This document shows, one piece after another, positions 2 to 27,366 of a DNA stretch of 34,144 bases. Position 1 is the first letter of the stretch, and each line of letters starts with the position of its first letter. The stretch is from a virus (lineage: Duplodnaviria; Caudoviricetes): positions 1 through 34,144 of the IMG/VR virus record IMGVR_UViG_3300012953_000100. The stretch is one strand, 5' to 3'. The position numbers and the translations under genes are program-made. The notes beneath the pieces were generated by a model. It saw only the letters and a list, made by a program, of their open reading frames with translations, was not told the origin of the DNA and ran no database searches.

Positions 2-163
2 AATCTTCCGCAGCTGGAAGACGCATCCACAAAGCTCGCTTCTCTGGTGCTTGCGTCTCAGCTAGGATTGCAGTCGATTCCAAAGACGGCTGCGGTCAGG
101 GCTATGACGGCATTAGAAGACGTGATAACGGGGCTCAAATCACTTAAGAGGTACTCAATATGA
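2..163 (+). CDS. 3' end of an upstream gene (partial), helical C-terminus, probable head-associated protein
   Basis: Frame open from the window start: NLPQLEDASTKLASLVLASQLGLQSIPKTAAVRAMTALEDVITGLKSLKRYSI*. Its TGA (161-163) overlaps the next ATG (160) as ATGA. Not in the ORF track. Confidence 0.7.
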   Translation, partial: NLPQLEDASTKLASLVLASQLGLQSIPKTAAVRAMTALEDVITGLKSLKRYSI

Positions 164-462
164 CTGCCAGCATGGATAAAATAGCAGCATACGAAATGTT
201 ATTGGAAGATCATCCTCTGTGGACCAAAGAGGCGGGGCTACTAGTCGGCAAAGCCGTACATGCAGGAGGAAGAAGCCTTACTTCGGCAAGAGCAGCTGGA
301 AAAGGGATCCCAGGGGGCCTGAAACGTCCTGCACAAAATCTTAAGCCAAGTGTTCCGCCTGCACAAACGGCCAGGGAGGTGACCACACACGGGTATCCTA
401 AGACTATTTTCCATAATAATATTACCAAGAGTCGGCCTTTGGCCCTCCCAGCACCTAGGTGA
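160..462 (+). CDS. Small basic protein with N-terminal KIAAYExxLExHPLWxKxA leader; putative virion internal/cargo protein
   Basis: ATGA coupling to the upstream gene. The leader motif is shared with ORF 2287..2658, and the rest is basic and Gly/Ala/Pro-rich. Confidence 0.7.
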   Translation: MTASMDKIAAYEMLLEDHPLWTKEAGLLVGKAVHAGGRSLTSARAAGKGIPGGLKRPAQNLKPSVPPAQTAREVTTHGYPKTIFHNNITKSRPLALPAPR

Positions 463-479
463 GTAGAGTAGTATTGTAA

Positions 480-1349
480 ATGGCACACCCTTCTGAATTC
501 TTTATTAAGTATTTACTGATTCTAGGAGACGACCTGTCCCTAGAGTCAATAAATACCAACTTGGAGCTGTACGGTATTTCTGCAGTTACTGAGAACGAGA
601 TAACTCTATATAAAGAAGACTTAAAAGATGTGCCTAAAGACTTTCGCCCTTGGGAGAGTAGCCATAGGCCCTCAGTGTCCTGGCTAAAAAAGAAGAGACT
701 TTACTCCATGGTACATCCCGATAAGGGAATGCTAGAGATGAGAGACTCTATCTTATCTAATCCCCGACTTCGTGAGAACGTAGAGCGCATGATTCTGGGA
801 AACGTTAGTTTCGTGGAGTCCTCTAATCGCCTCGCAAAACTTGGGACAATGGTCAGTGATGTAGCCATTTCTGAATATAAACATTACTTCTGGAATACAG
901 AAGTGATGGGCATAAGTGATTGGGCGTACTATCTCGAAAGAGACTCTACTAGAAGAACTTCGGCGTCCAAGTCTCCGTACTCTTTGGCATTACTTGCGGG
1001 ACCTGAAGTTGCCATGTATAGAGTCGGAGTTCGAAAACAACTAGACTCTAAGAAAATAATGATGGAAGTTCAGTCCGAGCTGTATCATTCTTTCCTAGAG
1101 ACAAAAACTTTACCTCTATCTTCAAAGAAAGTAGAAATGCTTACGGGATTGGCTAGAGGATTAGCTAGGATTGACGAAAGAGTGCAGGCAGGAGATACTG
1201 CACTTCAGGAAACCCTAAAGAAGTTTGAGAAGTTTAAAGTATTGCATGGTAAGGAACAGCCTCCAAGCCTCCTGGATTTAGCCCCTACGGGTTCAGTTAG
1301 TGATAGGTCAAGGGACGAAATTCTTACATCAGGAAAAGGAGCAACATAA
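480..1349 (+). CDS. Hypothetical phage protein (289 aa); possible terminase small subunit or DNA-packaging accessory
   Basis: Long helical ORF with a coiled-coil-like C-terminus, upstream of terL on the same strand. The function is a positional guess only. Confidence 0.75.
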   Translation: MAHPSEFFIKYLLILGDDLSLESINTNLELYGISAVTENEITLYKEDLKDVPKDFRPWESSHRPSVSWLKKKRLYSMVHPDKGMLEMRDSILSNPRLRENVERMILGNVSFVESSNRLAKLGTMVSDVAISEYKHYFWNTEVMGISDWAYYLERDSTRRTSASKSPYSLALLAGPEVAMYRVGVRKQLDSKKIMMEVQSELYHSFLETKTLPLSSKKVEMLTGLARGLARIDERVQAGDTALQETLKKFEKFKVLHGKEQPPSLLDLAPTGSVSDRSRDEILTSGKGAT

Positions 1350-1909
1350 TGTCTACAAGAAGCGTAACTCTAAATGCTGAGATCGATGTATCTCAGTTTA
1401 TCCGAGACAACAATTTATCCGCTAGATCAGTAGAGATCTCTTCCAATAGTTCGGGGATGCCCGTTGTTTATTTTAATTCTCAACAGGGAACGTCCCAAAC
1501 TTTAGTAGACCCTGCTGACGGAGGAGTGATTATTGCTCCGAGGAATGATTACACTGCTGCTCTGGCGGCGAGCCAATACACATCAGCTGTTAGCGGTTTG
1601 GCTGGAATGGACAAGGTACTGATAGAAATTAACTGCGGAGATGTAGCTTCTCAGACCATTAACCTAGTCCCTCGATGGAGCAACAACGCAAGCCCTGATG
1701 TGGACACAGCGGCTGATTGGTCTTTTGAAACTAAAGGAACTGATGCAAACCCTTCAGTATTTCAACTAATGACGTATCAGGTACCCAGTGTTCAGAATGG
1801 CAAGGTTATTGTAGCTCTGTCAGTCTTGGGAGCGCACCTGTCATTAGTTTACTGGAGCGGCGGGCTGACATTGGGAGATACAGGAACAATCGCAGCAGCG
1901 GTTATTTAG
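1349..1909 (+). CDS. Hypothetical beta-rich protein, possibly structural
   Basis: TAATG overlap with the upstream stop, RBS AAGGAG just upstream, S/T/V/A-rich composition. Confidence 0.75.
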   Translation: MSTRSVTLNAEIDVSQFIRDNNLSARSVEISSNSSGMPVVYFNSQQGTSQTLVDPADGGVIIAPRNDYTAALAASQYTSAVSGLAGMDKVLIEINCGDVASQTINLVPRWSNNASPDVDTAADWSFETKGTDANPSVFQLMTYQVPSVQNGKVIVALSVLGAHLSLVYWSGGLTLGDTGTIAAAVI

Positions 1910-1924
1910 GGAGAAAGAGGAAAA

Positions 1925-2284: not shown

Positions 2285-2286
2285 AG

Positions 2287-2658
2287 ATGCCCTTTAAGTC
2301 TCAAGCCCAGCGCAGATACATGTACGCCACAAACCCCAAGCTCGCAAAAAGATTTGAAGAGCACACGCCGAAAGGCAAAAAGCTACCGGAATACGTAATG
2401 GATAAAGTTTCTGCGCACTGCACATCCAAAGCTAAAAAGAAAAAGAAGCACACAAAGATAGCTGCCTACGAGTTTATTCTAGAGAATCACCCTCTCTGGG
2501 AAAAGGTAGCTAAGAAAAAAGTAGTTGGAGTGAGAGAATGGGCACTGGATGCACAGGGCAGAAGAATGCAGAAGCTGCTCGAAGGCACCGGACTTACGCT
2601 AAAGCCGTTAAACAAGACTCCCGATTCAAAGCGACTAAGTATGTGGAACACCGCCTAA
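2287..2658 (+). CDS. Small basic phage protein: MPFKSQAQRR-type N-terminal module plus internal KIAAYExxLExHPLWxKxA motif
   Basis: The N-terminus MPFKSQAQRRYMYATNPKLAKRFEEHTPKGKKLPEYV resembles a short module I recognise from uncharacterised phage proteins. Residues 57-75 match the ORF160 leader. Confidence 0.8.
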   Translation: MPFKSQAQRRYMYATNPKLAKRFEEHTPKGKKLPEYVMDKVSAHCTSKAKKKKKHTKIAAYEFILENHPLWEKVAKKKVVGVREWALDAQGRRMQKLLEGTGLTLKPLNKTPDSKRLSMWNTA

Positions 2659-6335: not shown

Positions 6336-6351
6336 TTATGCCCCTTTTTAT
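6336..6351 (-). promoter_or_regulatory. Putative phage promoter motif copy 3 (ATAAAAAGGGGCATAA)
   Basis: 39 nt upstream of ATG 6297 and overlapping the stop of the HTH gene. Confidence 0.65.
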
Positions 6352-7034
6352 TTAGTTTTTAGTAGTTTGGAGAACAAAGATTCTGCAGTGCTTTTGGGGG
6401 CCTCAATCAGCCCATATCTATTAAGTTCTTCTTCTAAATTTCCCATCATCTCTGAGTATATAAATGCGGATATTCTAAGCCTGCGTCTTGCCTCTGATAA
6501 AAGTTTATGTAGGTTTTGTAGTTCTAGTGAAGTGGAGTATTCTCTATCGCCAACGACACATTCGGACATTCGAACATTTAGTCTTAAAAATACCAGCCAT
6601 GCCTTTGGGTTATCTGTAGCTTTACAAAGAACCATAAAATCATTTTCGGATAGTCGATCAAATATCTCTATCCAAGGGGCTATTTCTTCCGCGCGCCACG
6701 AAGATCTTTCGGTGAGATGTTGAGCTGCTAATTGATATAGTTCTCTAGAATACTCCTCTCCTATCCCCAACGGCTGCATTTTTGTATCGAGCATACGCAG
6801 AACTACCTCCATATGAGACTCTAATCTGCGTACAGTTGTTTTTAGTTTTAAGAACTCTTTTCTAGATAATGTTGGAAATTCTGATTGAAAATCTAGCCTT
6901 AGTTCTTCTACTTCGATAGGATCAAGTAAACTAGACCTAGAAATTCGTTGTCTGGACAACAGTCCTTTTTTGATATAATTTCTAACTGTTCTATCGGTGA
7001 CTCCCAGAATGCTTGCAGCTTCTGGAATTTTCAT
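6348..7034 (-). CDS. DNA-binding protein with N-terminal MerR/excisionase-like (HTH_17-type) winged helix and coiled coil
   Basis: MKIPEAASILGVTDRTVRNYIKKGLL is a classic HTH pattern. Start likely ATG 7034 or 7046. Confidence 0.8.
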   Translation of the reverse strand: MKIPEAASILGVTDRTVRNYIKKGLLSRQRISRSSLLDPIEVEELRLDFQSEFPTLSRKEFLKLKTTVRRLESHMEVVLRMLDTKMQPLGIGEEYSRELYQLAAQHLTERSSWRAEEIAPWIEIFDRLSENDFMVLCKATDNPKAWLVFLRLNVRMSECVVGDREYSTSLELQNLHKLLSEARRRLRISAFIYSEMMGNLEEELNRYGLIEAPKSTAESLFSKLLKTK

Positions 7035-7066
7035 TGTATATTTCATATATAACCTCAAGAGGGTTT

Positions 7067-7948
7067 ATGTTTAATTTTACTCTTTCAAGGGACTCTCTTA
7101 GAGCAATGGCTCAAAGAGCATCCTCAGAATACATTATCAACGGCACGCCGCTTACGGAAGCAGTTATAAAGGTTGCGTCGTCGTGCCCCCATACTTTAAC
7201 AGCAGAGCATGTTCGTAGGATTTGTGAAATGACTTATCACGACGCTTACGAACGGTTACACAAGACCGCTAGCGGAGCAGATAGATACGTTAGCTTTGAT
7301 CCACCGGACGCAGTAGTTGCAGCTAAGAAGCTACGAGCAACTAAGACAGCAGCTGCGGAGCGTTCCGCTAATCTATTTGAGGGTACCGCCGTTATGACAT
7401 CTAAAGTAGCATCTTTACGAACTAAGTTTACTCCCGCTAATGCCTTTACTGAGCTTGTCAAAGCTGCAGAAGCTCCAGAAGTTAACTGGGAAAATCCAAA
7501 CAAAGAAATACAGGACATCCAAACTTCTCTAAAGGAGGCAAAGAGTTCGTTACATGTAGAGCTGGGAGGAGTGAAGACCGCCCATGCTGTAGCTACTGGA
7601 GAATTAATAGAGTCAATGATTGGCATGTACAAGCAGGGAAACTCGATACCGGATCTACTGCACGCATGTCTCAGCCAGCTTGACTGGAATGAAATAACCA
7701 AAGAGTCCGCTCAAGAGACTTCAAACATTATAGCAGAGAAGATAGCCAGCGCAGTCAACACTGTAGTAGGGATGCCCGTCAATGAAGTGGCTCATTTAGG
7801 TGATGTAAATCCTGAACATCCTCTACCAAAAAAGTTTTCTAAGGTAGCAGAGTTAGCCACCCAAAGAGCCCATCTTGAGTTTGCTTTGGATGAGATCGAC
7901 TCTAATGTCGAATATTTTAATAGAAAACTAGAAGACCTGTTAAAGTAA
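7067..7948 (+). CDS. Putative head core/scaffold-associated protein rich in K-x-A sites
   Basis: ATG 7067 after GAGGG (ORF track starts at 7013). Helical, with KVAS, KTAS, KTAA, KVAS, KIAS and KVAE; first gene of the head operon. Confidence 0.75.
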   Translation: MFNFTLSRDSLRAMAQRASSEYIINGTPLTEAVIKVASSCPHTLTAEHVRRICEMTYHDAYERLHKTASGADRYVSFDPPDAVVAAKKLRATKTAAAERSANLFEGTAVMTSKVASLRTKFTPANAFTELVKAAEAPEVNWENPNKEIQDIQTSLKEAKSSLHVELGGVKTAHAVATGELIESMIGMYKQGNSIPDLLHACLSQLDWNEITKESAQETSNIIAEKIASAVNTVVGMPVNEVAHLGDVNPEHPLPKKFSKVAELATQRAHLEFALDEIDSNVEYFNRKLEDLLK

Positions 7949-8151
7949 TGTCAGAACGACAAAGAACAGCTAGGCTGAGAGAGCGACTAACTAAAATCGC
8001 TATGGATGCTTCAAAAGTATTACTAGCGGGAGCGGCACTGGGGGGCGGATCTTACGCATTTGCGAAGGGCGCAAAGAGCAGTAGAAATAAGTTTACGAAA
8101 CAGGACCTCCCCATGGACAATTATTTACGTTTGCGAAAAGGACCATTCTAA
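7948..8151 (+). CDS. Small protein: leader, TKIA, Gly-rich hydrophobic segment, basic tail
   Basis: TAATG overlaps on both sides; contains VLLAGAALGGGSYAFA. Confidence 0.7.
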   Translation: MSERQRTARLRERLTKIAMDASKVLLAGAALGGGSYAFAKGAKSSRNKFTKQDLPMDNYLRLRKGPF

Positions 8152-8720
8152 TGCCCAAAATTAATGTTCCCTCAGAAGCATATGAGGCTTTCTCTTCTGG
8201 AGAGATTACAAGAGAAGAATTAACCGAGCTTGAGAAGTTTGCTGAATATCTAAGTAAGGAAGCTTCCCCTACTTTCGGGCAAATGGCTGGATTGGCGATA
8301 GCAGCCCCTAGTCTAGCTTACTTGGGGAGTAAGATCCCAGAAGCTATAGAAAGCGCTAGAAACAACGCTTCTTTCAACAGTGACTTTAAGCGGATACTAA
8401 AAGTTAACCCGTCTCTTGGTAGCTCTCAAGATCCCAATCTTCAGATGGCCTATAAAACTTTACGGACACTGAGCCCTACGTACGCCAAAGATCCTTTGTT
8501 GGCGGGTACTATCTTGGGTAACGTTATGCATAATAGAACTGATCCAGACGATCCTTCGAGTCCTCCTAGGTTTGATCCGGCCCTCGTAAATGAAATAGTG
8601 AGAGGAACTCCACAATCCTCGGGTGCAGTAAGAGCGGGACAATCCGCTGCAGCTAAGTCTTCTGAGCCCTTAGCTAAGATGCTTGCAATGGGCAGAAAAA
8701 AAGAAGAACAAAAAAAGTAG
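8151..8720 (+). CDS. Putative internal head protein (acidic leader ending EKFA...SKEA)
   Basis: Translationally coupled to the upstream gene; the hydrophobic segment MAGLAIAAPSLAYLG follows the KEA site. Confidence 0.75.
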   Translation: MPKINVPSEAYEAFSSGEITREELTELEKFAEYLSKEASPTFGQMAGLAIAAPSLAYLGSKIPEAIESARNNASFNSDFKRILKVNPSLGSSQDPNLQMAYKTLRTLSPTYAKDPLLAGTILGNVMHNRTDPDDPSSPPRFDPALVNEIVRGTPQSSGAVRAGQSAAAKSSEPLAKMLAMGRKKEEQKK

Positions 8721-8723
8721 ATT

Positions 8724-10679
8724 ATGTTTACGAAATACTCACAACTCAGAGGTAGGTCGACCGAAGGACGCCCATTAATTCATATGGTCGAGCCAGGCTC
8801 TGCCTATGGAACCCAGGACACATCGGGCATCTCTAAGACTGCTTCTGGTGAGCATTTACCCCAAGTAATAGAACTCATAGAGTCTTTAGAGGCGCAGCCA
8901 GATAGACTATACCTAGTGAATTCGGCACTGGGTGCGGGAGAGTATGTAGGCTTTAATCTTCGCGGGGATTGGTTTGGCGAAGAAGGACTAAAGCGTGCTC
9001 CCAAGGGTTTTGATGATATACCTGTGTGGGATATAGATGCCCGAAGAAGAGCGGCCAATCAGACAGAGATTGTTCCAGGATGGGGGCCCTTGGCTTGGGG
9101 ACACACTACTTTCTATAACGCTCACCGATTTAGGCACCACGTAAATAAAGATCCAAATAAAGCCTATGGGTATATATTAGGGGCTTTTTGGGATGATAGA
9201 ATGAAGAGAGTCATTCTTGTCTCAGAGTTAATAGAGAGTATGTGTGCGAATCTCGGCGCACAACATATTTACGACAGAATCAAAGCAGGAGAGTTTCCCG
9301 ACTCTTCTATGGGAAGCAAAGTCCCCTATGATGCCTGTTCCATCTGTGGACATAAAGCTCGATCACCTGCCCAATATTGTGAGCACGTTTCCTCTGATGC
9401 CCGTCCTCCCTATGGAATGAAATCACTTCTGCCAGATGGCAGAGTCTGCGGGGTCTATAATGATTACCCCAGATTTTTTGACGACTCCTTTGTGTTTATC
9501 GGAGCGGAAAGATCTGCGAAAGTAATGTCTGACGTTACAGATAAAATTAAAGGTACTCACTCGTACTCACAAACTTTGTATCCTTTTGTACGTACAGTTG
9601 CGAAGGTTGCGTCTGCTCCCGAGCAAAAAGCCGTTCAGGGAGTCAAAGATGTAGTGATCCCTGACTTTGTGTTAGAGGAAAAACTAACTAGAGCAGTTCA
9701 ACAGATACAGGCGAATACTCCTCTAGAAAGAGAAGCCTTGAGGTACTTCATGCAGGAGCGACTAGGGCAGGAGCGTATAGCTCGAGGCACTATGTCTGGT
9801 TCTGAGTATGAAATGTGGAAACAGATTTCGACAAATCTGTTTTTACGTCAGTACGGAGTTCCGCCAGAGAACCTTTCTTATCTTCGTCAGCTATTCAATT
9901 CCAAAGTAGAGCAGATGACGGGAATGCAGAAGTCTGCCGAGATGCCGAAGTGGGCTGAGATGCTAAAAAGAATTCCAGCTCCAAGCCCCAAGCAACTAAG
10001 TTTGGTTAGGTCGGAAGAGCAATCAATGCCTGAGCTTCCAAGAGAGATCTTAGAAGTACTAGCTAAAAATCCAAGAGAGAATTTAGTTGCTGCTGCCAGA
10101 ATGGGAGTAGTTCTAAAGCCTAGAGAATTTCAACACGTAATATTGCACAAGAAAAATCCGGAAATTGCGGACAATATATACAGTAAAAAAGTAGTGTTCA
10201 GACCCTGCCCTCTGAAAGAAAATACTTCTGCGTTTGGAACGTCTTATGCACCAAAAGAAGTTATGCGAACTGTAGCTGGGCTTCTTTCGCGGTTTTTAGA
10301 GAGAAGATCTTTCGCTCCAACGGCGGTAAGAATTAGAATACTCAAAGGAAATACAGAACCTACTTCTTCTACTGATTTACTAGAAAAAGTTAGCGATTTA
10401 GAAGAAATTTCAGAATTATATAATGTATATAGATTGGGACTAATTCAAAATCCGCCAGACATGAGGGCTATTAACTTGAATTTTTTCCCATCAGAAACTA
10501 TAAAAAGAGATGAAAAAGTTGCCGAAGACTCAGTTTCTTTGTCGAATTTGTTATTACATGTTGCTTATTGGCCCGGTCTAAGTTTAGGATTAGGTCAGCT
10601 GGAAGAGGGGGTTTCCCCCGAAGATGCCGCCAACACCCCAGAAAATGTATTTGGAGAAAACCATGTCAGCACTCCTTGA
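8724..10679 (+). CDS. Putative prohead (capsid maturation) protease with Zn-finger motif and long C-terminal extension
   Basis: Candidate catalytic His (FRHH) and Ser (SSMG), followed by CSICGH...YCEH and FFDDSFV, a pattern typical of HK97/herpes-fold phage prohead proteases. Lies upstream of the scaffold-like genes and MCP. Confidence 0.7.
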   Translation: MFTKYSQLRGRSTEGRPLIHMVEPGSAYGTQDTSGISKTASGEHLPQVIELIESLEAQPDRLYLVNSALGAGEYVGFNLRGDWFGEEGLKRAPKGFDDIPVWDIDARRRAANQTEIVPGWGPLAWGHTTFYNAHRFRHHVNKDPNKAYGYILGAFWDDRMKRVILVSELIESMCANLGAQHIYDRIKAGEFPDSSMGSKVPYDACSICGHKARSPAQYCEHVSSDARPPYGMKSLLPDGRVCGVYNDYPRFFDDSFVFIGAERSAKVMSDVTDKIKGTHSYSQTLYPFVRTVAKVASAPEQKAVQGVKDVVIPDFVLEEKLTRAVQQIQANTPLEREALRYFMQERLGQERIARGTMSGSEYEMWKQISTNLFLRQYGVPPENLSYLRQLFNSKVEQMTGMQKSAEMPKWAEMLKRIPAPSPKQLSLVRSEEQSMPELPREILEVLAKNPRENLVAAARMGVVLKPREFQHVILHKKNPEIADNIYSKKVVFRPCPLKENTSAFGTSYAPKEVMRTVAGLLSRFLERRSFAPTAVRIRILKGNTEPTSSTDLLEKVSDLEEISELYNVYRLGLIQNPPDMRAINLNFFPSETIKRDEKVAEDSVSLSNLLLHVAYWPGLSLGLGQLEEGVSPEDAANTPENVFGENHVSTP

Positions 10680-11679
10680 GGAGCTTGAATCGCGTGGCGT
10701 CACAGCTGAAGATCTAGAAAAAGCGGCATCAGTCCGACTTTTCGAAAAAGCTGCTGCCGCCGAGGGCGTGAATCTTGAGACTTTGGATCAAGAGCAGATC
10801 GAAGAACTCTATTCCGCCTTCATTAACAATAACAACCTTTCTTCGTCAGTGGTTGACGAAGATAATTTAATGAAAGAGGCAAATGCCATGAATGAAGAAA
10901 TCGTAGAGTTATTCGAAAAGCAAGCAGAGGCGGAGGGTATCGATCTCGAAACTCTCGATGACGTTGAGCTTGCCAATATGTACAACCACTATGTGGAAAA
11001 CGTACTACCAGAGCAAATTGAGACTGAGCAGTCTTACGAAGTTGAAGAGGCTCACGCTAAGCTCGCTGAGGCTGAGATTTTGGGACGTCACATGGCTCGC
11101 GCCTATGCAGATGAATCTGAGAAGATCGCTGCTACTATGGGAGAGAGAGCTGAGGCTGTTAAGGAAAAGGCCAAGTCCGCTTTCGACTCAATTAAGGAAA
11201 AGGGCAAGGCAGCTGGCGAGCGAGCGCGAAGCGCTGGCAAGTCCGTTGCAGATGCTGGACGTAGCGCCGGTCGTTCCTACATGGATGCCATTAAGTTTAA
11301 GGAGCTTCGAGAGGGAATCACGGCAGCAAAGAACGTTAAGGGGTATAAGGGCAAGCTCGATTCTCCCGGAAAGAGACAACTGTCGGCGGCTAGAAAACAA
11401 ATGCTTCGCGGCGGCGCTAAGGGTCTTCTCGCAGCTGGTGGTACGGCTGCTGCAGGTTACGGCGGCTACAAGGGCGTCCAGAAGATGACGAAGAAGAGTT
11501 CCTACGATATTCTAGAGGAAAACGCAGAAGCGTTGGCACTTGAGTTTCTCTCTAAGGAAGCAGAGGACACTCAGATTGACGACATCAATTTGAACGAGTA
11601 CTCGGAAACTGAGATCGACAACTACATCACTGAGCGTGCAGTAGAGATGCTCATCGATGCGGGCTACGATTTCGAGTAA
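10663..11679 (+). CDS. Scaffold/internal head protein: acidic duplicated N-domain, basic Ala/Gly-rich core, acidic C-tail
   Basis: ATG 10663 after GGAG. Repeat LFEKAAAAEGVNLETLD / LFEKQAEAEGIDLETLD and many K-x-A sites. Confidence 0.8.
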   Translation: MSALLEELESRGVTAEDLEKAASVRLFEKAAAAEGVNLETLDQEQIEELYSAFINNNNLSSSVVDEDNLMKEANAMNEEIVELFEKQAEAEGIDLETLDDVELANMYNHYVENVLPEQIETEQSYEVEEAHAKLAEAEILGRHMARAYADESEKIAATMGERAEAVKEKAKSAFDSIKEKGKAAGERARSAGKSVADAGRSAGRSYMDAIKFKELREGITAAKNVKGYKGKLDSPGKRQLSAARKQMLRGGAKGLLAAGGTAAAGYGGYKGVQKMTKKSSYDILEENAEALALEFLSKEAEDTQIDDINLNEYSETEIDNYITERAVEMLIDAGYDFE

Positions 11680-11689
11680 AGGACGTTAG

Positions 11690-11941
11690 ATGAGGCTTGG
11701 ATATCAGGTATGGCTATCGTTTCTAGATGAAATGACAAAGCTGTCTTCCAAGCCTCGTCAAACTATCAAGCTGCCTTCTCCTAATGGTGGGGGAGGGCAG
11801 AACTTTGGAAGATTTACCGACTCCCCGGCTCCAACTAAGGTAACGGGCGAAACTAGAAAAGTTTCCAAGTCGGATTCTTTATTACAGATTGGAAGAACGG
11901 GGTCTGTTACGGATACTCCGCCTCCGCCTCCAGTCATTTAA
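11690..11941 (+). CDS. Small protein with FLDEMTKLS leader and Pro/Gly/Thr-rich tail
   Basis: RBS AAGGA; the leader resembles those of ORFs 16930 and 26237. Confidence 0.7.
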   Translation: MRLGYQVWLSFLDEMTKLSSKPRQTIKLPSPNGGGGQNFGRFTDSPAPTKVTGETRKVSKSDSLLQIGRTGSVTDTPPPPPVI

Positions 11942-11962
11942 CTATTTGATAGGGCAAGTTTA

Positions 11963-12823
11963 ATGAGCACCAACTATCGAAGTATGATTGACGAAGCGCT
12001 GGCTAGCGCCCGCTCTCGTCTTACCGCAGAGGTGCCTCAGATGACTAAATCGGCCTCTTCTACCACAGAAGATAGCCTGGTCAAAGAGGCGTCTGATCTG
12101 GCCGATGCCCTTGAGTACATTTCTCACTCAGTGGGTACCGGAAACAAGGCTGACCAAGTTAAGAGCGCAATGCTTTCAGATTTCTTTAGTAAGTCTGCTG
12201 CTGATGGTCCAGTCGTGTCCGAAACTTCTGCTAAGGGAACGCAGGAGCAAACTTCTGAAGGCGGAAAGGCAAAGCTTAATCCAAAAGGCCTAGTGTCTGG
12301 AGACTCTCCAGCACAGTCGTCCGCCTCCCCAGAAGCTAAAGATGGCGAAAAGACTCTGCGAGAGTCCATGAAACAGGCAGAGAGCCTATCTCTTTACGAT
12401 ATACTTATGAGCAGCAAAGAGGCTGGACAGGGTGGTCCTGCCGAAACGAGCGCCTCTGAAGATGCTCCAGGCATTCCTACCGGAAACGAAAACGCGGGAA
12501 GGCAAAACCTTTTAGGAACTAACGAAGCCGCAGTTGCTGCTACTAAGCGACAGGCAAAGCTTCCTACACGTTCTCGCCTACAGGAAATCTTTTCTCACGC
12601 ACAAGACACTACTGGTGAGCAGGATGCTGCTGCTGTATTCCCTATGGCGACTCGCGCAGGGACCATCAAAGTTTCTTCTGTAATGGATAAGCTCGCTAAC
12701 ATTGAAAAGGCTCGCAAGCTTATGGAGTCTGATGGGCTCTCAGCTACCGCAGCCCTAGGCAAGGTTTACCCAGACTGGGACGAAGAAAAGATTGCCGCAA
12801 CCGCAGCAAAGATGGGCGGGTAA
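11963..12823 (+). CDS. Putative scaffold/core protein, largely disordered, multiple K-x-A sites
   Basis: S/A/E-rich; KSAS, KEAS, KSAA, KQAE, KEAG, KLAN, KIAA; located in the head operon. Confidence 0.8.
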   Translation: MSTNYRSMIDEALASARSRLTAEVPQMTKSASSTTEDSLVKEASDLADALEYISHSVGTGNKADQVKSAMLSDFFSKSAADGPVVSETSAKGTQEQTSEGGKAKLNPKGLVSGDSPAQSSASPEAKDGEKTLRESMKQAESLSLYDILMSSKEAGQGGPAETSASEDAPGIPTGNENAGRQNLLGTNEAAVAATKRQAKLPTRSRLQEIFSHAQDTTGEQDAAAVFPMATRAGTIKVSSVMDKLANIEKARKLMESDGLSATAALGKVYPDWDEEKIAATAAKMGG

Positions 12824-12825
12824 GG

Positions 12826-12984
12826 ATGAGCAAGGTCTATGATAGACTTATCAAGATAGCCAAAGGCGAACCTACCTCTAAGGAGGCAGAGGCCGTTAAT
12901 GAAAGCTCGTCTTCAGAAAAGGTGGCTTCATTGCCAGAAGAAGAGGCGAGAATGCGTCGTCTTGATCAGTTACTAAAACGTTAA
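12826..12984 (+). CDS. 52-aa protein MSKVYDRLIKIAKGEPTSKEAEAVNESSSSEKVASLPEEEARMRRLDQLLKR
   Basis: Read manually, below the ORF-track cutoff. It fills most of the gap and contains three K-x-A sites. Confidence 0.7.
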   Translation: MSKVYDRLIKIAKGEPTSKEAEAVNESSSSEKVASLPEEEARMRRLDQLLKR

Positions 12985-13011
12985 TTTGGTGCAAACCGCG
13001 AGGATACTATT

Positions 13012-13377
13012 ATGAGTAAAATCGAAAGTACGCAGCTAGCAGCAGTATCTGCTCGCGGAGCTGCGTCAATTAGAGCCCTGGTTGAAAAAGTAGCAAGCCT
13101 AGAAGCCGAAAAACTCGAGCTTCACGAAAAGATTGCCCAGTATGAGCGAGATGTTGAAATCTCTGCCTTAGCCAAGGAAATGGAAGATAAAGGCCTGAAT
13201 GCAGATATGACGTTCGAAGAAAAGGTAGCGAACCTACGGGGTCACGCACACCTAGAGAGCGTCAAAGAAGCTGTTAAATTAGCGTCAGCTGGCGGTGTCC
13301 AGTTGGCAGATGTTTCCGACCACCCCGGGACGGGAACGCTTGACCCCTTAACCAACTTTTGCCTAGTAGGCGAATAA
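13012..13377 (+). CDS. Coiled-coil capsid scaffolding-like protein
   Basis: RBS GAGGA; heptad LVEKVASLEAEKLELHEKIAQYE; two genes upstream of MCP. Confidence 0.75.
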   Translation: MSKIESTQLAAVSARGAASIRALVEKVASLEAEKLELHEKIAQYERDVEISALAKEMEDKGLNADMTFEEKVANLRGHAHLESVKEAVKLASAGGVQLADVSDHPGTGTLDPLTNFCLVGE

Positions 13378-14000: not shown

Positions 14001-15140
14001 ATGGATTACACGGCAGAAATGGTAAATTCAGGCTTCATTGAGCGGTTGGAGACCGAAGGTCCCACTAAGACCGCCGCTGCGAGCCTTAACTACATTAAGG
14101 ATCGTCTCCGCGAGTCAAGTTTCGCAGACATGATCATTCCTAATGAGAGAGTCGTTCGTGGCGATCTCCAGCGATCCACCGAGCATGATACGCTCGTCAA
14201 GATCGTTGACATCGAACCGGGCAGCCGAGCCATGGCAGTTAACTTCCGTGGTCAGCCTACTGCTCAGTACGTAAACGGTAAGCGATACGCTATCGGTTTC
14301 TTCACGATCTCAAGCCTCAAGTTTGAAATCGTTGAGCAGGAGCTTATGGCATACGAGATGCCTGTTACTCGCATTATCGAAGAGAACAGCCTCAAGGACA
14401 TGGTTGAGATCAAGGACCGAGAGTTCCTCAATCACGTTGAGGCTTGCATTGACGGTATGCAGGCAGAGGCAAACAGCACTGCTTTCAGCACGACCAACAT
14501 CAACGCCGGAACCGCAATCAGCGTTTCTAAGTTGAAGGGTACTTTGGCTCTACAGGCACAGGCGGATTCTTTCGCTAGTCTGGCGATCCAGCGTAACGAC
14601 ATTGTTCGCCTCAAGAAGCTCTTGAAGCAGCAGGTTGCTGATGCCAACGGTACAGTCATCCGACAGGGCCGCTTGCGTCCCGCAGTTATGCTCATGACTG
14701 AGTCTGACGCGGATGATTTCGATCAGTGGACACTTGAGGATTACGGTGATCGTCTCCAGAGTGAGACGGCTCTTGACGGCTACACCTACAACAAGGTTTT
14801 GGGTCTTCGAGTTATCCGTACCATCAAGAATGACATTCTTCGAGAAGGAAACGTTTACGTTTTCACTGCTCCAGAATTCTTCGGACGTAACTACACCTTG
14901 AACGATGTTAAGTTCTACATCGACAAGATTGCTAACCGAATCTTCTGGCAGGCATGGATGGACGTCGGCATGGGCTTTGGTAACATTGCTTCCGTAGTTA
15001 AGCTTGAGCTTTACTCGGACGCTTCAGACGGTGCTGCACCTGGTGCTGCTGCTGTTAGACCAGTTGCTGAGGCTGACATTGGCGCTCAGAACAATAAGGC
15101 ATCCGAAGGCTTGACCTTCCCTGCTATCAGCGTATTCTAA
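14001..15140 (+). CDS. Major capsid protein (HK97-fold expected)
   Basis: 379 aa with strong RBS AGGAG and highly biased codon usage, followed by a strong terminator. It sits after the protease, scaffold and decoration genes and has a KTAA site near the N-terminus. Confidence 0.85.
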   Translation: MDYTAEMVNSGFIERLETEGPTKTAAASLNYIKDRLRESSFADMIIPNERVVRGDLQRSTEHDTLVKIVDIEPGSRAMAVNFRGQPTAQYVNGKRYAIGFFTISSLKFEIVEQELMAYEMPVTRIIEENSLKDMVEIKDREFLNHVEACIDGMQAEANSTAFSTTNINAGTAISVSKLKGTLALQAQADSFASLAIQRNDIVRLKKLLKQQVADANGTVIRQGRLRPAVMLMTESDADDFDQWTLEDYGDRLQSETALDGYTYNKVLGLRVIRTIKNDILREGNVYVFTAPEFFGRNYTLNDVKFYIDKIANRIFWQAWMDVGMGFGNIASVVKLELYSDASDGAAPGAAAVRPVAEADIGAQNNKASEGLTFPAISVF

Positions 15141-16928: not shown

Positions 16929-16929
16929 T

Positions 16930-17109
16930 ATGCTTAACAAAGAAACATTATATTTCTTCGCGGATGAGCTAGAGAAATCAGCTAGAAGCACTACGTCAAT
17001 TCACGACGTATATACGGGTCTTCGAAACCTATTCAGCGGCAGTGCAGCAAGAACTACTAAGCCGCACCCCTCCTTTAAACAATGGCAAAAGAAGAGAAAG
17101 ATTAAATGA
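16930..17109 (+). CDS. 59-aa protein with FFADELEKSA leader and basic tail
   Basis: Read manually: MLNKETLYFFADELEKSARSTTSIHDVYTGLRNLFSGSAARTTKPHPSFKQWQKKRKIK*. It fills the gap and has an ATGA overlap with the next gene. Confidence 0.75.
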   Translation: MLNKETLYFFADELEKSARSTTSIHDVYTGLRNLFSGSAARTTKPHPSFKQWQKKRKIK

Positions 17110-18290
17110 TGTCTGATTTTTTCTCCAATAAGAGTTCTGAAATTCCTGACGAAATTTGGAAGGCCCCTGCTCCAATGCAGAGGCAAGTAGATGCTGCCGT
17201 TCTATGGGCAGAGCTTACTGGAAAGCATCAGGAAGAAGAACTACCTACAAAAGAGGCAGCCTTCTATCACACTGGCATGGGGCTAGGGGCCGGAGCCGGA
17301 GCCATAATTGGAGCACATAAGGCACAAGAGGGAGACAACTTAGCCAAAAGAATTGCAATAGGCGCTGGCGCTGGCGCTCTTGGTGGGGGAGCAGGTTTCC
17401 ATGCAGCGAGGCTGGCTGCCATAAAAACCCTTAAGAACGAGCGACTGCTTGAGAAAGTACGTAAGCTAAGCGAACAAAATCAAGAACTCTTTGAAAGAGC
17501 GATAGTTGGCGGTGTTACGACCGGAGCGCCCGCTGCTGGAGCTACCGGAGCGGCCCTTTTGGCAGATAAGCTAACAAAAAAACGGAATAGCACCAAAAAA
17601 GAGGCAGCATTTCCTCTAGCCGGCATGATACCCGGAGCCATAACAGGAGCTGCAGTTGGCGCAGCTAAGGGAAATGATAAAGACAGCTTAGCCAAAAGGA
17701 TGGCAATAGGTGCCGGTGCCGGTGCACTTGGAGGGAGTGCGGGTTTTCATGGATCGAGGCTTGCTTTAGGTAAAGTGCTTACGAATCCGACGGTAGTAAA
17801 TAAAATAGAAAAGCTAGGGCCTACGGGGCAGAATCTTGTCATGGGTGGGGCTGTGCTTGGTGCTGGGCTTGCTGCGCCCGCTGCTGGAGGTGCTGGAGCA
17901 ACCCTTCTTGCGGATAAACTAAGAAATAAAAAAACCAAAAAGGAGGCGTCTGCCCTCAGCAAGATGGTTTCAGGCGTAGCAAACAGCCCAGTTGCTGCAG
18001 GAGCAGCAATAGGCGCTCCCGCAGGAGCTGCAATCGAATATGCCGAGGCGAGACCAGGAAAGAAAGGGCTTTCTCGTAGAGAAATAAATCTTCGAGGACA
18101 ACTAGCCTCTTTAAGAGAGCAGGAAAAAATAACCGGAAATAAGGGCGGTAAGATTGATCGCCTAAAGAGAAGGTTAGAAAAGGCCGAAGAAGCCCGCAAG
18201 AATCCTGCAAAAGCCGCACTAAAAGGCGCTGCGCATGGGGCAGCCTTTGGCAGTTTGGGTGGATATCTAGGAGGCAAAGGCCTGTTGTGA
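17106..18290 (+). CDS. Glycine-zipper polyprotein with three modules delimited by KEA[A/S]
   Basis: GxxxG arrays; a roughly 116-aa internal duplication; KEAA at aa 49 and 165, KEAS at aa 279. Confidence 0.85.
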   Translation: MMSDFFSNKSSEIPDEIWKAPAPMQRQVDAAVLWAELTGKHQEEELPTKEAAFYHTGMGLGAGAGAIIGAHKAQEGDNLAKRIAIGAGAGALGGGAGFHAARLAAIKTLKNERLLEKVRKLSEQNQELFERAIVGGVTTGAPAAGATGAALLADKLTKKRNSTKKEAAFPLAGMIPGAITGAAVGAAKGNDKDSLAKRMAIGAGAGALGGSAGFHGSRLALGKVLTNPTVVNKIEKLGPTGQNLVMGGAVLGAGLAAPAAGGAGATLLADKLRNKKTKKEASALSKMVSGVANSPVAAGAAIGAPAGAAIEYAEARPGKKGLSRREINLRGQLASLREQEKITGNKGGKIDRLKRRLEKAEEARKNPAKAALKGAAHGAAFGSLGGYLGGKGLL

Positions 18291-19162
18291 TAAAATTCCG
18301 CAACGAAAAAGTAGTCTCTTTTGAGCTAGACTACCAAGATGTCTTCTGGGAAATTGCTCCGACGATGGAGGATATACAGGAATATCAATTTTTCGTTGAA
18401 AGATCGGAAGCGGAAGCCGGACCCTGGGACCAGATAGCCGGCCCTTTGATAGATCAATATCAGATACGCGACAACAGTGTTCCACTAATAACTACTAACT
18501 CTAGGACTCTTCACTATAGAGTAAAGGCCCTGCACCTCCCATCTGGAGAAATAGAGTACTCAAGGGTATTCGATAGGGAGGGAGACATCACTGTAATGGC
18601 CAAGGAAATGGTCAGATTAGAAAGAGTTCTTTTCTCCGAGTTCGTAGGAGTAAAGTGCTGGTTGTTCCCCAGAAGAACCTTTGGACAGAGATGTCCTAGT
18701 TGTTACGATGAAGTTCTTGACAAAGTAATTGATGACGCCTGTTCGGTGTGTTTTGGGACTTCGTATAGCGGAGGCTATCACCATCCGATAGAATTCTGGG
18801 CGCAGATAGACCAACCAGAAGAAGCCGAGCAAGTTACCGTAGAGGACCATAGGAGAGTATTATATTATCAGCTTAGATGTGGCCCCTCACCCGCTGTTAA
18901 GCCCTTAGATGTTATAATCGACCATCAAAATAGGCGTTTTAGAGTAATTCAAGTTGGCGGAACTTCTCGATTAGGAGTTACCGTACGGCAAGAAGTTAGA
19001 TTAGTTAATATACAAAAGGGGTCCATAGAAGATAGAATACCCTTAAAGGTCGATCACGCTATCAAAGATCTAGTACCGAAAAGAGTTTTTAGTAACTCCC
19101 AGTCTGTCTCCAGTTCTGACGTAGATCTAGACACGATTCTAAGTCCGTATAGGTATAAGTAA
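18287..19162 (+). CDS. Putative neck/head-closure protein with N-terminal FN3-like segment and Zn-binding Cys pairs
   Basis: VFWEI...YQFFVERSEAEAGPW, CPSC...CSVCFGT; located between the adaptor and tail genes. Confidence 0.6.
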   Translation: MIKFRNEKVVSFELDYQDVFWEIAPTMEDIQEYQFFVERSEAEAGPWDQIAGPLIDQYQIRDNSVPLITTNSRTLHYRVKALHLPSGEIEYSRVFDREGDITVMAKEMVRLERVLFSEFVGVKCWLFPRRTFGQRCPSCYDEVLDKVIDDACSVCFGTSYSGGYHHPIEFWAQIDQPEEAEQVTVEDHRRVLYYQLRCGPSPAVKPLDVIIDHQNRRFRVIQVGGTSRLGVTVRQEVRLVNIQKGSIEDRIPLKVDHAIKDLVPKRVFSNSQSVSSSDVDLDTILSPYRYK

Positions 19163-19530
19163 TGCAGAAAAATAAAAAAGAAAAAAGGTCCCTAATCAAA
19201 ACAGTGGCAGTGCCTGCTTTAGCCAGCGTTGCTGGTTACGGTATGGGGTCTTTGACGGGTGGACTAGCTGCGAATGCATTATTTAAAAATAAAACCATAG
19301 CGAATAAACTCATGTCTATGAGTCCCGAAAAAAGAAAGAGAGCCGTAGACAGAATAAGACTAGTCAGTAGGAGCGTAACCGGAGTTGCGGGTGCATTAGG
19401 CAGCGCCGCTACCGCTAATTATGTGAAGAGAGAGTTAGATAAAATAGAAAAGAAGGGCTCGACTAGCTTTAATGAAAAAACTGCATCAGTATATACTGTA
19501 TATCTTCAAGCATTAGAGAGAACTAGATGA
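19162..19530 (+). CDS. Small basic glycine-zipper membrane-type protein with C-terminal EKTAS tail
   Basis: ALASVAGYGMGSLTGGLAA and VTGVAGALGSAATA; coupled to its neighbours on both sides. Confidence 0.75.
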   Translation: MQKNKKEKRSLIKTVAVPALASVAGYGMGSLTGGLAANALFKNKTIANKLMSMSPEKRKRAVDRIRLVSRSVTGVAGALGSAATANYVKRELDKIEKKGSTSFNEKTASVYTVYLQALERTR

Positions 19531-25505: not shown

Positions 25506-25535
25506 ACAATAATCCCATAACCTAAGGAGAGCCCT

Positions 25536-26234
25536 ATGGCATCTTTATCAAATTGGTCTCCATATGAGACCAGAGTCCAAGGCGGAATGGCCGATGGACG
25601 ATTCATGAACGCAGCGTACACTGTGATTGCCGCAGGGCCTCCTCGTCTTGCAAATGTGGGTGGTCCTGAATTCCTAGGTGCAGCTTTAGCTGCTGGGGAT
25701 CAGTCAGAAGATATGCTTGCGTATCCAATTGGCGTGGTTCAGAATTTTAATCTAAGCCACAATATGCAGATCAGCAGAATCTTTGAAATAGGCTCTGTTC
25801 GTTCTTACTACATTCCTGGACGAGTAATGGGGCAGATTGGGCTGGGTAGAGTTCTCTATCACGGCCCCTCTCTTCTGAGAGTTCTGTACGCGTACTATCA
25901 GGATATTATCCCTCCGACATTTATCCGTCCTACTTTTCCCAATTTAGGGTCTGCTACCGTAGCTAACCCTCACGATGTAATCATTCCTCCTGGGTATGAG
26001 AACATTTTCCTCAATCTTGCTTCTGACCTTTTTACTCAGCCTGTGGGTATGTTAATGTTAATGAAGGATAGTAACGAGGACACGTTGGGTGCAGGGTATT
26101 TTGAGTGTTGCCACGTTCCAAACCATTCGTTATCGACAGATGCTATGGGAACTTTGATCCAAGAAACGGCAGCTGTTCAGTTCGAAAGACTGGTTCCTGT
26201 TAACACTGAGGTCGTATCACTCATAACTGGGTAA
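25536..26234 (+). CDS. Tail tube protein
   Basis: RBS TAAGGAG; PIGVVQNFNLS...RIFEIGS...YYIPGR and a C-terminal IQETAAVQFER pattern; downstream of the sheath gene. Confidence 0.75.
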   Translation: MASLSNWSPYETRVQGGMADGRFMNAAYTVIAAGPPRLANVGGPEFLGAALAAGDQSEDMLAYPIGVVQNFNLSHNMQISRIFEIGSVRSYYIPGRVMGQIGLGRVLYHGPSLLRVLYAYYQDIIPPTFIRPTFPNLGSATVANPHDVIIPPGYENIFLNLASDLFTQPVGMLMLMKDSNEDTLGAGYFECCHVPNHSLSTDAMGTLIQETAAVQFERLVPVNTEVVSLITG

Positions 26235-26236
26235 GT

Positions 26237-26494
26237 ATGGACAGCTTAATATTAGAGTTCTTTCAAGATGAGCTTATTAAGTTAGCCTCTTCCGCTAAAA
26301 AGCGGAAGAGGCACACTTATTATATGGCGAATAGAAATGCAATCTTGAATAGACAAAGAATGTATAGGCAGAAGAACTCTTCTAAGATAAGAAGAAGACA
26401 AAAAATATATAGAAATAAAGTTAAGTCTGGGGCTCGCAAAGTAAGAAAGAGAATTTCTACTGGAAACTCCTACTCATACGGAAGCTACAGATGA
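26237..26494 (+). CDS. Highly basic small protein with FFQDELIKLA leader; putative DNA-condensing internal protein
   Basis: An acidic/hydrophobic 17-aa leader followed by a K/R/Y-rich body with no acidic residues. Confidence 0.75.
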   Translation: MDSLILEFFQDELIKLASSAKKRKRHTYYMANRNAILNRQRMYRQKNSSKIRRRQKIYRNKVKSGARKVRKRISTGNSYSYGSYR

Positions 26495-27366
26495 GCCAAG
26501 ACAGATTACGAGTTAAGGGACTTAAGATGCCAAGACTAGCTACCCCGCGTCCTGCAAATTTTACTCACAAGGGAGACGTACCTTTACGTCCTTTTTCTGG
26601 TAATCAGGTTCTTTTAGAGAAGTATTCTTCTGCCCCACTGACTTATCACCTTTTAGGAAACGAGATTGCAAAGGTAGCCAATACCGATCTAGACCCTGCA
26701 ATTCATGCGTTTCTCTACCTACACGCCCCCGAAATGCTGACCGAGCAGGAGAAGCAAGCAGGAATCATGGCCCTGGGCCTTAGGGGACTCGGAAGAGCTG
26801 CAGGCGCTGCGGCTAAGGTCGTGAGTCCCCTCTCTAAACGGCTAAGCGCGTCATTATCTCAGGGCAGCAGCAGGGCATATCAAGCTGCTTCTAGAAGGTA
26901 TGATGCGGCCGCACAAAAAGCTCTGGACAAGCTCCCTACAGCTAAGTTAACGGGGAATAAGGTTACGGGATTCGAAACTCCAGTAGCACAGCTTCCCACC
27001 GCGAGCTATAGGACTGTAGGTAAGGGTCGAGACGGAACAAATATTATCAGTATAGATAAACTGAAAACTCCTGCATCAGCGACGCCCAAAGCCTTAGATC
27101 GTGCAGCAGCTAACGCAGAGAAATATAGAGCGGCGAGCAAGAGATCAATGGATAAGTCGTATGATGCGGCAAGAGCGGCCGACGCAACTAGAGCGGCACG
27201 GGCGACCAGAATTGCTGAGAATGAAGCAAGGAGACAGGGAAGGATTATTGGTCCGAAAGGATTAGCGTTGGCGGGAATCGGTACATTAGGTGTCGGGTCT
27301 TACGCCGGAATGCGGGCGGGGGCTCGAGATCAGGGGGCTCCGGGGTATAACTACGGAGTTAGGTAG
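26491..27366 (+). CDS. Basic Ala-rich protein with EKQA site and C-terminal Gly-rich hydrophobic segment; putative internal virion protein
   Basis: ATGA coupling; EKYS, KVAN, EKQA|GIMALGLRGLG; GLALAGIGTLGVGSYAG. Confidence 0.75.
   Translation: MSQDRLRVKGLKMPRLATPRPANFTHKGDVPLRPFSGNQVLLEKYSSAPLTYHLLGNEIAKVANTDLDPAIHAFLYLHAPEMLTEQEKQAGIMALGLRGLGRAAGAAAKVVSPLSKRLSASLSQGSSRAYQAASRRYDAAAQKALDKLPTAKLTGNKVTGFETPVAQLPTASYRTVGKGRDGTNIISIDKLKTPASATPKALDRAAANAEKYRAASKRSMDKSYDAARAADATRAARATRIAENEARRQGRIIGPKGLALAGIGTLGVGSYAGMRAGARDQGAPGYNYGVR

What the first reader, a model, noticed from the sequence alone, without database searches (positions are those of the whole stretch)
160..27366. Window-wide K-x-[A/S] motif: candidate prohead-protease processing code for a large set of virion-packaged proteins
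Seen: K-x-A/S (TKEA, EKVAS, KTAS, EKIAA, IKLAS, EKSA, EKQA) recurs in about 15 + strand proteins (160, 2287, 7067, 7948, 8151, 8724, 10663, 11690, 11963, 12826, 13012, MCP N-terminus TKTAA, 16930, 17106, 19162, 26237, 26491). It often sits exactly at the boundary between an acidic leader and a basic or hydrophobic module, and by eye it is much less conspicuous in terminase, sheath and tube. Established: T4 gp21 and phiKZ gp175 cleave many head proteins at short motifs ending in Glu and remove propeptides. Inference: the 8724 protease has a different, K-x-A/S specificity and matures scaffold, MCP and many cargo proteins.
Basis: partly seen in the sequence, partly recalled or inferred. Interest (0 to 1): 0.85.

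Follow-up and report, generated by a model that had tools for sequence, protein, structure and literature searches.

The report
Lys-x-Ala phage head-protease cut code
The head-building proteins of this uncultured phage and of relatives including Bacillus phage G and Salmonella phage Arash are packed with a conserved Lys-x-Ala tag that likely marks where the phage's own capsid-maturation protease cuts, a known kind of system with a cutting rule not found in the papers searched, though no cut has been measured.

Summary
The motif is real but narrower than described: it is hydrophobic-x-Lys-x-Ala-(Ser/Gly/Ala). K-x-A is the top of 311 residue pairs in the head operon 7067-13377 (44 vs 17.2 expected); K-x-S is not enriched (12 vs 12.8). 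Terminase, neck, sheath, tube and non-structural genes sit at chance. The same blind test recovers the proven motifs of T4 gp21 (LxE, IxE, ranks 1-2) and SPN3US gp245 (AxE, rank 2). ORF 8724 folds like T4 gp21 and herpesvirus proteases, with conserved His139 and Ser195. K-x-A flanks its catalytic domain in 128 of 129 and 131 of 134 homologues and is not enriched inside. Short leaders ending in K-x-A head swappable basic or glycine-rich tails; a 97%-identical relative diverges right at the site. K-x-A also ranks first in phage G, Arash and Vibrio D69 head genes. Best reading: a protease site cut after Ala (0.72). Limits: no cut, packaging or register is measured, and in Arash most abundant virion enzymes lack the motif, so it is a head-core code, not a general packaging tag. 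The scan noted the same motif at least eight times on other DNA. New variant of a known kind.

The parts
8724..10679 (+). Prohead-protease gene (651 aa): catalytic domain about residues 44-290 (His139 at 9138-9140, Ser195 at 9306-9308), flanked by K38-T-A (8835-8843) and K294-V-A (9603-9611); helical C-terminal part with K403-S-A
   Evidence: PHROG head maturation protease E 5e-5; VIA Z 9.0 to T4 gp21, 7.6 to VZV protease; H139 100%, S195 99% of 147 aligned rows; the three sites lie in low-confidence linkers of the model
7067..7948 (+). K-x-A-dense core/scaffold-like protein (9 sites; K113 kept in 13 of 13 orthologues)
   Evidence: syntenic K-x-A-dense genes in Arash (gp220) and D69; no atlas or phage-collection hit
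7948..8720 (+). ORFs 7948 and 8151: short N-terminal leaders ending in K-x-A (K16; K29 and K36, each 11 of 16 orthologues)
10663..11679 (+). Acidic scaffold-like protein with 9 K-x-A sites; a variable basic module starts after K154-I-A
11690..12984 (+). ORFs 11690 (leader ending K-L-S; K-I-A in some orthologues), 11963 (8 sites, K41 14 of 16) and 12826 (3 sites in 52 aa)
13012..13377 (+). Small helical scaffold-like protein, 5 K-x-A sites, four kept in 11-14 of 14-15 orthologues
14001..15140 (+). Major capsid protein; K23-T-A at 14067-14075 is a candidate end of a 25-residue propeptide
   Evidence: PHROG major head protein E 2e-4; K-x-A kept in 15 of 16 distinct orthologues and in Arash and D69; absent from phage G gp27
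160..462 (+). Small ORF: leader M-D-K-I-A-A-Y...H-P-L-W-x-K-x-A (172-234) followed by a swappable basic tail
2287..2658 (+). ORF with the same leader internally (2449-2511); tail after K73-V-A replaced in a 97%-identical relative
   Evidence: 206 of 213 nt identical up to the site, unrelated after
16930..18290 (+). ORF 16930 (F-x-D-E-L-x-K-x-A leader, basic tail) and ORF 17106 (conserved leader ending K49-E-A, then glycine-zipper modules joined by K-E-A at 165 and 279)
   Evidence: leader ends in K-x-A in 11 of 11 pattern-matched orthologues, 12 of 13 with two read by eye
19162..19530 (+). ORF with a C-terminal K106-T-A site (5 of 9 orthologues)
26237..27366 (+). ORFs 26237 (F-x-D-E-L-x-K-x-A leader, very basic tail) and 26491 (sites K61, K88, variable tail) downstream of the tube gene

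Best explanation
Hydrophobic-x-Lys-x-Ala-(Ser/Gly/Ala) is concentrated in this phage's head-core proteins and is likely the recognition site of its own T4-gp21/herpesvirus-fold protease (ORF 8724), which would cut after the Ala during prohead maturation. Shown: the enrichment and its confinement, conservation of Lys and Ala with a free middle residue, the protease fold with conserved His139/Ser195, sites flanking but not enriched inside the catalytic domain, and module swaps that begin at the site. Inferred: Lys is P3 and Ala P1. The protease would free itself from its leader and C-terminal part, shred the site-dense scaffold/core proteins (7067, 10663, 11963, 12826, 13012) so they leave the shell, probably trim 25 residues from the MCP (about 0.6), and remove short leaders from a few small basic or glycine-rich proteins. 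Those leaders would act as capsid-targeting sequences as in T4 (about 0.6).
For: K-x-A ranks 1 of 311 pairs in the head operon (44 vs 17.2) and 222 of 361 in terminase/neck/sheath/tube. The same test gives LxE and IxE ranks 1-2 of 192 in T4 core proteins and AxE rank 2 of 267 in SPN3US propeptide regions; these are the published P3-x-P1 motifs (PMC9026906; PMC10052503). Matrix sites 25 vs 1.46. Protease leader 128 of 129 (28.7 expected), C-flank 131 of 134 (49.3), catalytic core 4 vs 3.1 sites in 107 homologues. Fold: T4 gp21 Z 9.0, rmsd 2.9 over 133 residues; VZV 7.6; HCMV 5.9; KSHV 5.6. The residue after Ala is Ser 34%, Gly 17%, Ala 14%; SPN3US also prefers Ser at P1'. K-x-A ranks first in head genes of phage G (56 vs 29.1), Arash (44 vs 19.7) and D69 (49 vs 20.2). 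Two of the three densest Arash proteins give few virion peptides (gp220 6 of 20 possible, gp225 2 of 13) against MCP 30 and 18. Identity to a 97% relative ends at the site in ORF 2287.
Against: No cleavage, mature N-terminus or packaging is observed anywhere in this work. Fold scores are moderate (Foldseek best E 0.011-0.019; profile match to gp21 E 0.18), and the third catalytic residue is unassigned. T4 core proteins show a mild K-x-A excess too (14 vs 8.4, rank 7), so helical composition contributes. Substrates for the positive controls were picked with prior knowledge, and AxE fell to rank 11 of 343 on full-length SPN3US proteins. MCP, 16930 and 17106 sites score below threshold. Phage G gp27 has no K-x-A and is deposited from residue 1. 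Arash gp223 (8 sites, 9 of 13 peptides) and gp242 (5 sites, 21 of 21) persist in virions, and that proteome lists many metabolic enzymes, so it is a weak test. In mycobacteriophage Catera the signal is weak and split (K-x-A 34 vs 21.9, R-x-A 51 vs 36.1). Some high-scoring sites lie in predicted helices (K598 region).
Confidence: 0.72

Rival explanations
1. Same protease and site, but the cut falls after the Lys (P1 Lys, P2' Ala), as recalled for HK97-type proteases.
For: Lys is invariant and Arg does not substitute (R-x-A 524 vs 586.8), which could reflect a P1 pocket; HK97 K|S cutting is recalled, not from a call.
Against: P1' would be bulky and variable (T, L, V, I, E), whereas the residue after Ala is small; both control motifs recovered by the same test are P3-x-P1; homology to the relative holds through Ala and breaks after it.
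Confidence: 0.1
2. K-x-A is a docking motif that recruits proteins into the prohead core (binding scaffold or protease) and is mostly not cut.
For: Many sites lie in acidic, helix-prone segments (E-K-x-A); T4 separates targeting from processing within one leader (PMC9026906); site-rich Arash gp223 and gp242 are well covered in virions.
Against: Sites bracket the catalytic domain and avoid its interior; up to 9 sites per 300 residues fits multiple cutting as in T4 gp22; the strict small residue at the third and fourth positions fits an S1/S1' pocket.
Confidence: 0.11
3. The cutting enzyme is another protease (host enzyme or a phage gene outside this 34-kb fragment).
For: The window is a fragment; phage G also encodes ClpP/ClpX, annotated as head maturation proteases (bioRxiv 2024.12.16.628780).
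Against: The same motif occurs in phages isolated on Bacillus, Salmonella and Vibrio hosts, always next to an 8724 homologue, and flanks that enzyme itself.
Confidence: 0.04
4. Compositional by-product of K/A/E-rich helices.
For: Mild K-x-A excess in T4 core proteins; ParB has 3 vs 1.45; ORF 17106 is not enriched.
Against: Composition-preserving shuffles are exceeded 17-fold by matrix sites; K of K-x-A is conserved 0.56-0.72 vs 0.18-0.33 for other Lys in four of five head proteins tested (11963 is the exception, 0.30 vs 0.38); T4 core has 2 matrix sites in 842 aa vs 25 in 2080.
Confidence: 0.03

Closest known systems
Phage T4 prohead protease gp21 with L/I-x-E sites, core proteins gp22/gp67/gp68 and capsid-targeting sequences of IPI-III
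   Same: Protease fold (Z 9.0); three-residue P3-x-P1-like motif; site-dense core genes beside the protease and MCP genes; short shared leaders on divergent small proteins (PMC9026906 passages).
   Different: Motif is K-x-A, not L/I-x-E; sequence similarity is marginal (E 0.18); the enzyme carries a Cys/His cluster after the serine and a 350-residue C-terminal part; nothing is shown experimentally.
phiKZ gp175 / SPN3US gp245 (S/A/G-x-E, A-x-E)
   Same: Short motif, Ser preferred after the cut, self-cleavage, propeptides cut several times, most head proteins not cut (42 uncut in SPN3US; PMC10052503 passages).
   Different: P1 would be Ala, not Glu; unrelated phage lineage; the virion RNA polymerase region in relatives is nearly free of sites.
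Herpesvirus assemblin (VZV, HCMV, KSHV proteases)
   Same: Fold (Z 5.6-7.6); protease fused to a long C-terminal part; recalled consensus V/L-x-A|S matches Ala then Ser.
   Different: Lys instead of an aliphatic residue at P3; many more substrate sites; the consensus is recalled and my one search for it gave nothing usable.
Bacillus phage G gp19 (Donellivirus), Salmonella phage Arash gp222, Vibrio phage D69, mycobacteriophage cluster C and Rhodococcus E3 gp77
   Same: Sequence homologues of 8724 (E 5e-12, 3e-31, 1e-30, 1e-3; E3 gp77 only E 1); gp19 is annotated head maturation protease; K-x-A ranks first in G, Arash and D69 head genes.
   Different: No cleavage motif is given in the passages read; Arash gp222 is annotated only as structural protein; phage G MCP lacks the site; Catera shows a weaker K/R-x-A signal.

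Membership tests
Procapsid (prohead) proteases of the T4 gp21 / herpes assemblin fold | Assemblin-type beta-barrel fold | tested here: met
   Domain model pLDDT 93; top four VIA hits are gp21, VZV, HCMV, KSHV proteases, Z 9.0-5.6
Procapsid (prohead) proteases of the T4 gp21 / herpes assemblin fold | Conserved catalytic His and Ser in order | tested here: met
   H139 100%, S195 99% of 147 rows; S195 aligns with gp21 residue 140 (E 0.18; that 140 is the catalytic Ser is recalled)
Procapsid (prohead) proteases of the T4 gp21 / herpes assemblin fold | Third catalytic residue | tested here: inconclusive
   D253 (99%) and H138 (95%) are candidates; no coordinates were available to measure geometry
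Procapsid (prohead) proteases of the T4 gp21 / herpes assemblin fold | Gene lies upstream of scaffold and MCP genes | tested here: met
   8724 precedes 10663-13012 and MCP 14001; order kept in relatives
Procapsid (prohead) proteases of the T4 gp21 / herpes assemblin fold | Proteolytic activity on head proteins | not testable with these tools
   needs enzyme assay or virion MS
T4/phiKZ Glu-specific processing system | Cut after Glu at L/I/A/S/G-x-E | tested here: not met
   AxE 18 vs 23.5, SxE 17 vs 16.2, IxE 11 vs 8.3 in the head operon; LxE 30 vs 17.0 is raised but is the P5-P4 flank context or helix bias, below K-x-A
T4-type capsid-targeting sequence | Short shared N-terminal leader ending in the protease motif on otherwise unrelated proteins | tested here: met
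   15 distinct copies of the K-I-A-A-Y...H-P-L-W leader in 9 loci, 13 ending in K-x-A (the pattern itself demanded K-x-[AGS]); 29 F/Y-x-D-E-L-x-K-x-[AS] copies
T4-type capsid-targeting sequence | Leader is sufficient to bring a protein into the head and is removed there | not testable with these tools
   needs fusion experiments in a cultured relative

The most novel reading that the evidence does not exclude
Across a very large phage lineage (2,494 protease clusters at 50% identity), K-x-A-bounded leaders are portable capsid-loading cassettes. New basic or glycine-zipper peptides are recombined in directly behind the cut site, packaged, released by the protease and injected: a fast-evolving, polyprotein-style effector delivery system whose cargo can be read from sequence alone.
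Probability: 0.3. Interest if true: 0.78.

Novelty: new variant of a known kind. Interest (0 to 1): 0.56.

Why it matters
Known phage head proteases of this fold cut after Glu (T4, phiKZ, SPN3US). A Lys-x-Ala rule would give a different specificity, closer to herpesvirus assemblin, for a large lineage that includes phage G and Arash. It lets one predict scaffold, propeptides and internal head proteins in genomes where almost all head genes are unannotated. It is directly testable by re-searching existing virion spectra of Arash and phage G with semi-specific settings. If the leaders load cargo, they offer a second capsid-targeting tag beside T4's.

Tried and rejected
Co-folding of the protease domain with a 31-residue site-bearing stretch of ORF 7067 gave no answer (score 0.23, mark 0.32) and is not used either way. 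K-x-S and R-x-A as parts of the motif: rejected. The K-T-A right after the conserved G/P-A-D in the catalytic loop of homologues (61 cases at offset 0) is probably structural and was excluded in the recount. Arash MS 'coverage' values (MCP 86.64%) were considered as evidence of a lost propeptide and dropped: many proteins show 100% on two peptides and no peptide list is given. Phage G supplements held no peptide table. PDB sequence search with the window MCP found nothing significant; Catera and phage G MCPs hit only 6wkk. ORF 7067 had no hit in phages or the atlas. Literature searches for the motif or processing in this lineage gave no relevant paper. The 2020 phage G capsid paper was not held under the DOI I recalled and may hold processing data I could not see; Arash's docx supplement was too large to read and its xlsx was not opened. 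In one search ORF 5354 was translated on the wrong strand; corrected. My ORF caller picked wrong-strand frames in GC-rich loci, so site counts there are lower bounds and were not pooled.
Full report
Setting. The MCP has 35 relatives in IMG/VR at 38-90% identity on contigs up to 196 kb. Cultured relatives of ORF 8724 are Salmonella phage Arash, Vibrio phages D69/D181/D148, Bacillus phage G gp19 and cluster C mycobacteriophages; 2,494 clusters at 50% identity match it.

Observation. All 17 named ORFs carry K-x-[A/S], but the excess is only K-x-A: 62 vs 35.8 expected, with K-x-S 23 vs 22.1 (hand sums). In a blind test of all a-x-b pairs, K-x-A ranks 1 of 311 in the operon 7067-13377 (44 vs 17.2) and 222 of 361 in terminase, neck, sheath and tube (5 vs 6.1). 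A flank matrix trained on 347 sites from 130 distant protease homologues gives L/M/F at -2, E at -1, T/L/V/I in the middle and S/G/A after Ala. At one untuned threshold it finds 25 sites vs 1.46 in the head operon, 6 vs 0.99 in seven named small ORFs, 0 vs 0.12 in MCP plus 13399, 0 vs 0.58 in 12 other plus-strand genes and 2 vs 0.98 in 15 non-structural ORFs.

Conservation. In orthologues, Lys of K-x-A is kept at 0.60, 0.72, 0.56 and 0.67 against 0.18, 0.21, 0.18 and 0.33 for other Lys in 7067, 8151, 10663 and 13012; 11963 is an exception (0.30 vs 0.38). The middle residue often varies, e.g. 7067 K113: 13 of 13 keep K and A, middle identity 0.15. The MCP site is kept in 15 of 16 distinct orthologues and in Arash and D69 at about 25% identity, but phage G gp27 has no K-x-A and its PDB entry 6wkk lists residues 1-280.

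The enzyme. The domain model (pLDDT 93) matches T4 gp21 (Z 9.0), then VZV, HCMV and KSHV proteases (7.6, 5.9, 5.6), above unrelated MCE domains at 5.2 or less; Foldseek gives the same families at E 0.01-0.05. His139 and Ser195 of the SSMG motif are 100% and 99% conserved. Of 146 homologues, 129 had a scorable leader and 128 of these hold K-x-A (28.7 expected); 131 of 134 hold one within 45 residues after the core (49.3 expected), while the core has 4 matrix sites vs 3.1 in 107. In the full-length model K38, K294 and K403 lie in disordered linkers. This is the pattern of an enzyme that cuts itself free.

Controls. On T4 core proteins and propeptide regions the same blind test ranks LxE and IxE first and second of 192; on the first 160 residues of eight SPN3US head proteins AxE is second of 267 (eleventh of 343 on full length). 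These are the published motifs, cut after the third residue (PMC9026906 and PMC10052503, passages; PMC5694885, passages). I chose those substrates knowing the literature. T4 core proteins also show K-x-A at 14 vs 8.4, so a helical background exists, but only 2 matrix sites in 842 residues.

Range and limits. K-x-A ranks first in head genes of phage G, Arash and D69 and only sixth, shared with R-x-A, in Catera. In Arash I scored 74 of 252 annotated genes plus 126 script-called minus-strand ORFs: gp218-226 hold 31 sites vs 1.8, gp242 5, gp97 3, and the early/middle region 8 vs 7.9. The most abundant virion enzymes have few: RNA polymerase gp206 2 vs 0.65, gp216, gp217 and gp10 none. Site-dense gp220 and gp225 give few virion peptides, but gp223 and gp242 are well covered (section 16 of PMC10585845 read whole; that proteome looks contaminated). 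In the 97%-identical relative G001, 27 tail and replication ORFs hold 2 sites vs about 1.9, and its RNA polymerase beta gene none. So this is a head-core code, not a tag on all packaged proteins, as in SPN3US where 42 head proteins are uncut.

Leaders and swaps. ORFs 160 and 2287 share M/H-x-K-I-A-A-Y-x-x-x-L-x-x-H-P-L-W-x-K-x-A; 15 distinct copies sit at different positions in 9 loci ahead of unrelated tails. Between the window and G001 the only two unmatched stretches in the 3.7-kb overlap are the body of ORF 160 and the tail of ORF 2287. In 2287, 206 of 213 nt match up to the Trp, Lys and Ala are kept, and the tails are unrelated; in 160 the match ends three codons after the Ala. A second leader, F-x-D-E-L-x-K-x-A, heads 16930 and 26237, and the 17106 leader ends in K-x-A in 12 of 13 orthologues although 17106 is not enriched overall. 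This resembles T4 capsid-targeting sequences on divergent internal proteins; packaging itself is untested.

Mechanism. Most likely (0.72) the 8724 protease reads Lys at P3 and Ala at P1 and cuts before a small residue, releasing itself, degrading core proteins, probably trimming the MCP and removing leaders from small cargo. The register is inferred from the controls, the small residue after Ala, the swap points and the recalled herpesvirus V/L-x-A|S consensus. Rivals: uncut docking motif 0.11, cut after Lys 0.10, another protease 0.04, composition 0.03.

Novelty. Searches found no paper giving this motif. The phage G megaphage paper (passages; supplement search) names gp19 a head maturation protease without a motif, the phage G tail paper has no passage on cleavage and the Arash paper has no occurrence of 'protease'. 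The 2020 phage G capsid paper could not be read. The scan has noted the same motif on at least eight other windows, after my reading was recorded; these are unchecked notes and not evidence. Verdict: a new variant of a known kind, strong on sequence evidence, unproven biochemically, cheap to test; interest 0.56.

Noticed in passing
window 9336-9386 (ORF 8724 residues 205-221): Cys205, Cys208, Cys219 and His221 directly after the catalytic Ser are conserved at 97, 95, 98 and 78%: a probable zinc-binding insertion in the protease, also seen in phage G, Arash, D69 and Catera.
   Followed up: partly
P0065, P0090, P0093, P0100, P0103, P0105, P0110, P0112, P0115: Several protease homologues of about 1,000 aa carry intein and homing-endonuclease Pfam domains and match in two stretches, i.e. 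inteins inside the catalytic domain.
   Followed up: no
window 8724-8745 (ORF 8724 N-terminus): A second conserved motif M-x-x-K-(L/Y)-A-(T/V)-F starts many homologues (Lys4 94%); the window has K-Y-S there.
   Followed up: no
L039 (mycobacteriophage Catera gp87-94): R-x-A (51 vs 36.1) is raised alongside K-x-A (34 vs 21.9), suggesting relaxed P3 specificity in this branch.
   Followed up: partly
L074:42-3356 (G001) and Arash gp206/gp216: Relatives encode multi-subunit RNA polymerase subunits near the head genes; Arash gp206 and its D69 counterpart start M-P-K-x-A-S.
   Followed up: partly
window 27684-30697 (-): Adjacent vWA-like protein and MoxR/CobS-type AAA ATPase (PHROG 249, E 2e-29), a usual chaperone pair.
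   Followed up: no
window 6348-7058 (-): MerR/HTH regulator on the opposite strand just upstream of the head operon, conserved in position in relatives.
   Followed up: no
L073:13413-15422 (G001): 669-aa protein that may be the portal (my guess; no PHROG hit) has no matrix site, whereas phage G portal gp14 has 5 K-x-A vs 2.5.
   Followed up: partly
L074:5407-9383 and L073:10725-11756 (G001): Further site-bearing genes upstream of the window (343 aa, 4 sites; 652 aa, 5 sites; 479 aa with a conserved F-E-K-x-A leader), showing the system extends beyond the window.
   Followed up: partly
window 33101-34144 (-): Collagen-like G-P-A repeats run off the window end, probably a fibre protein.
   Followed up: no
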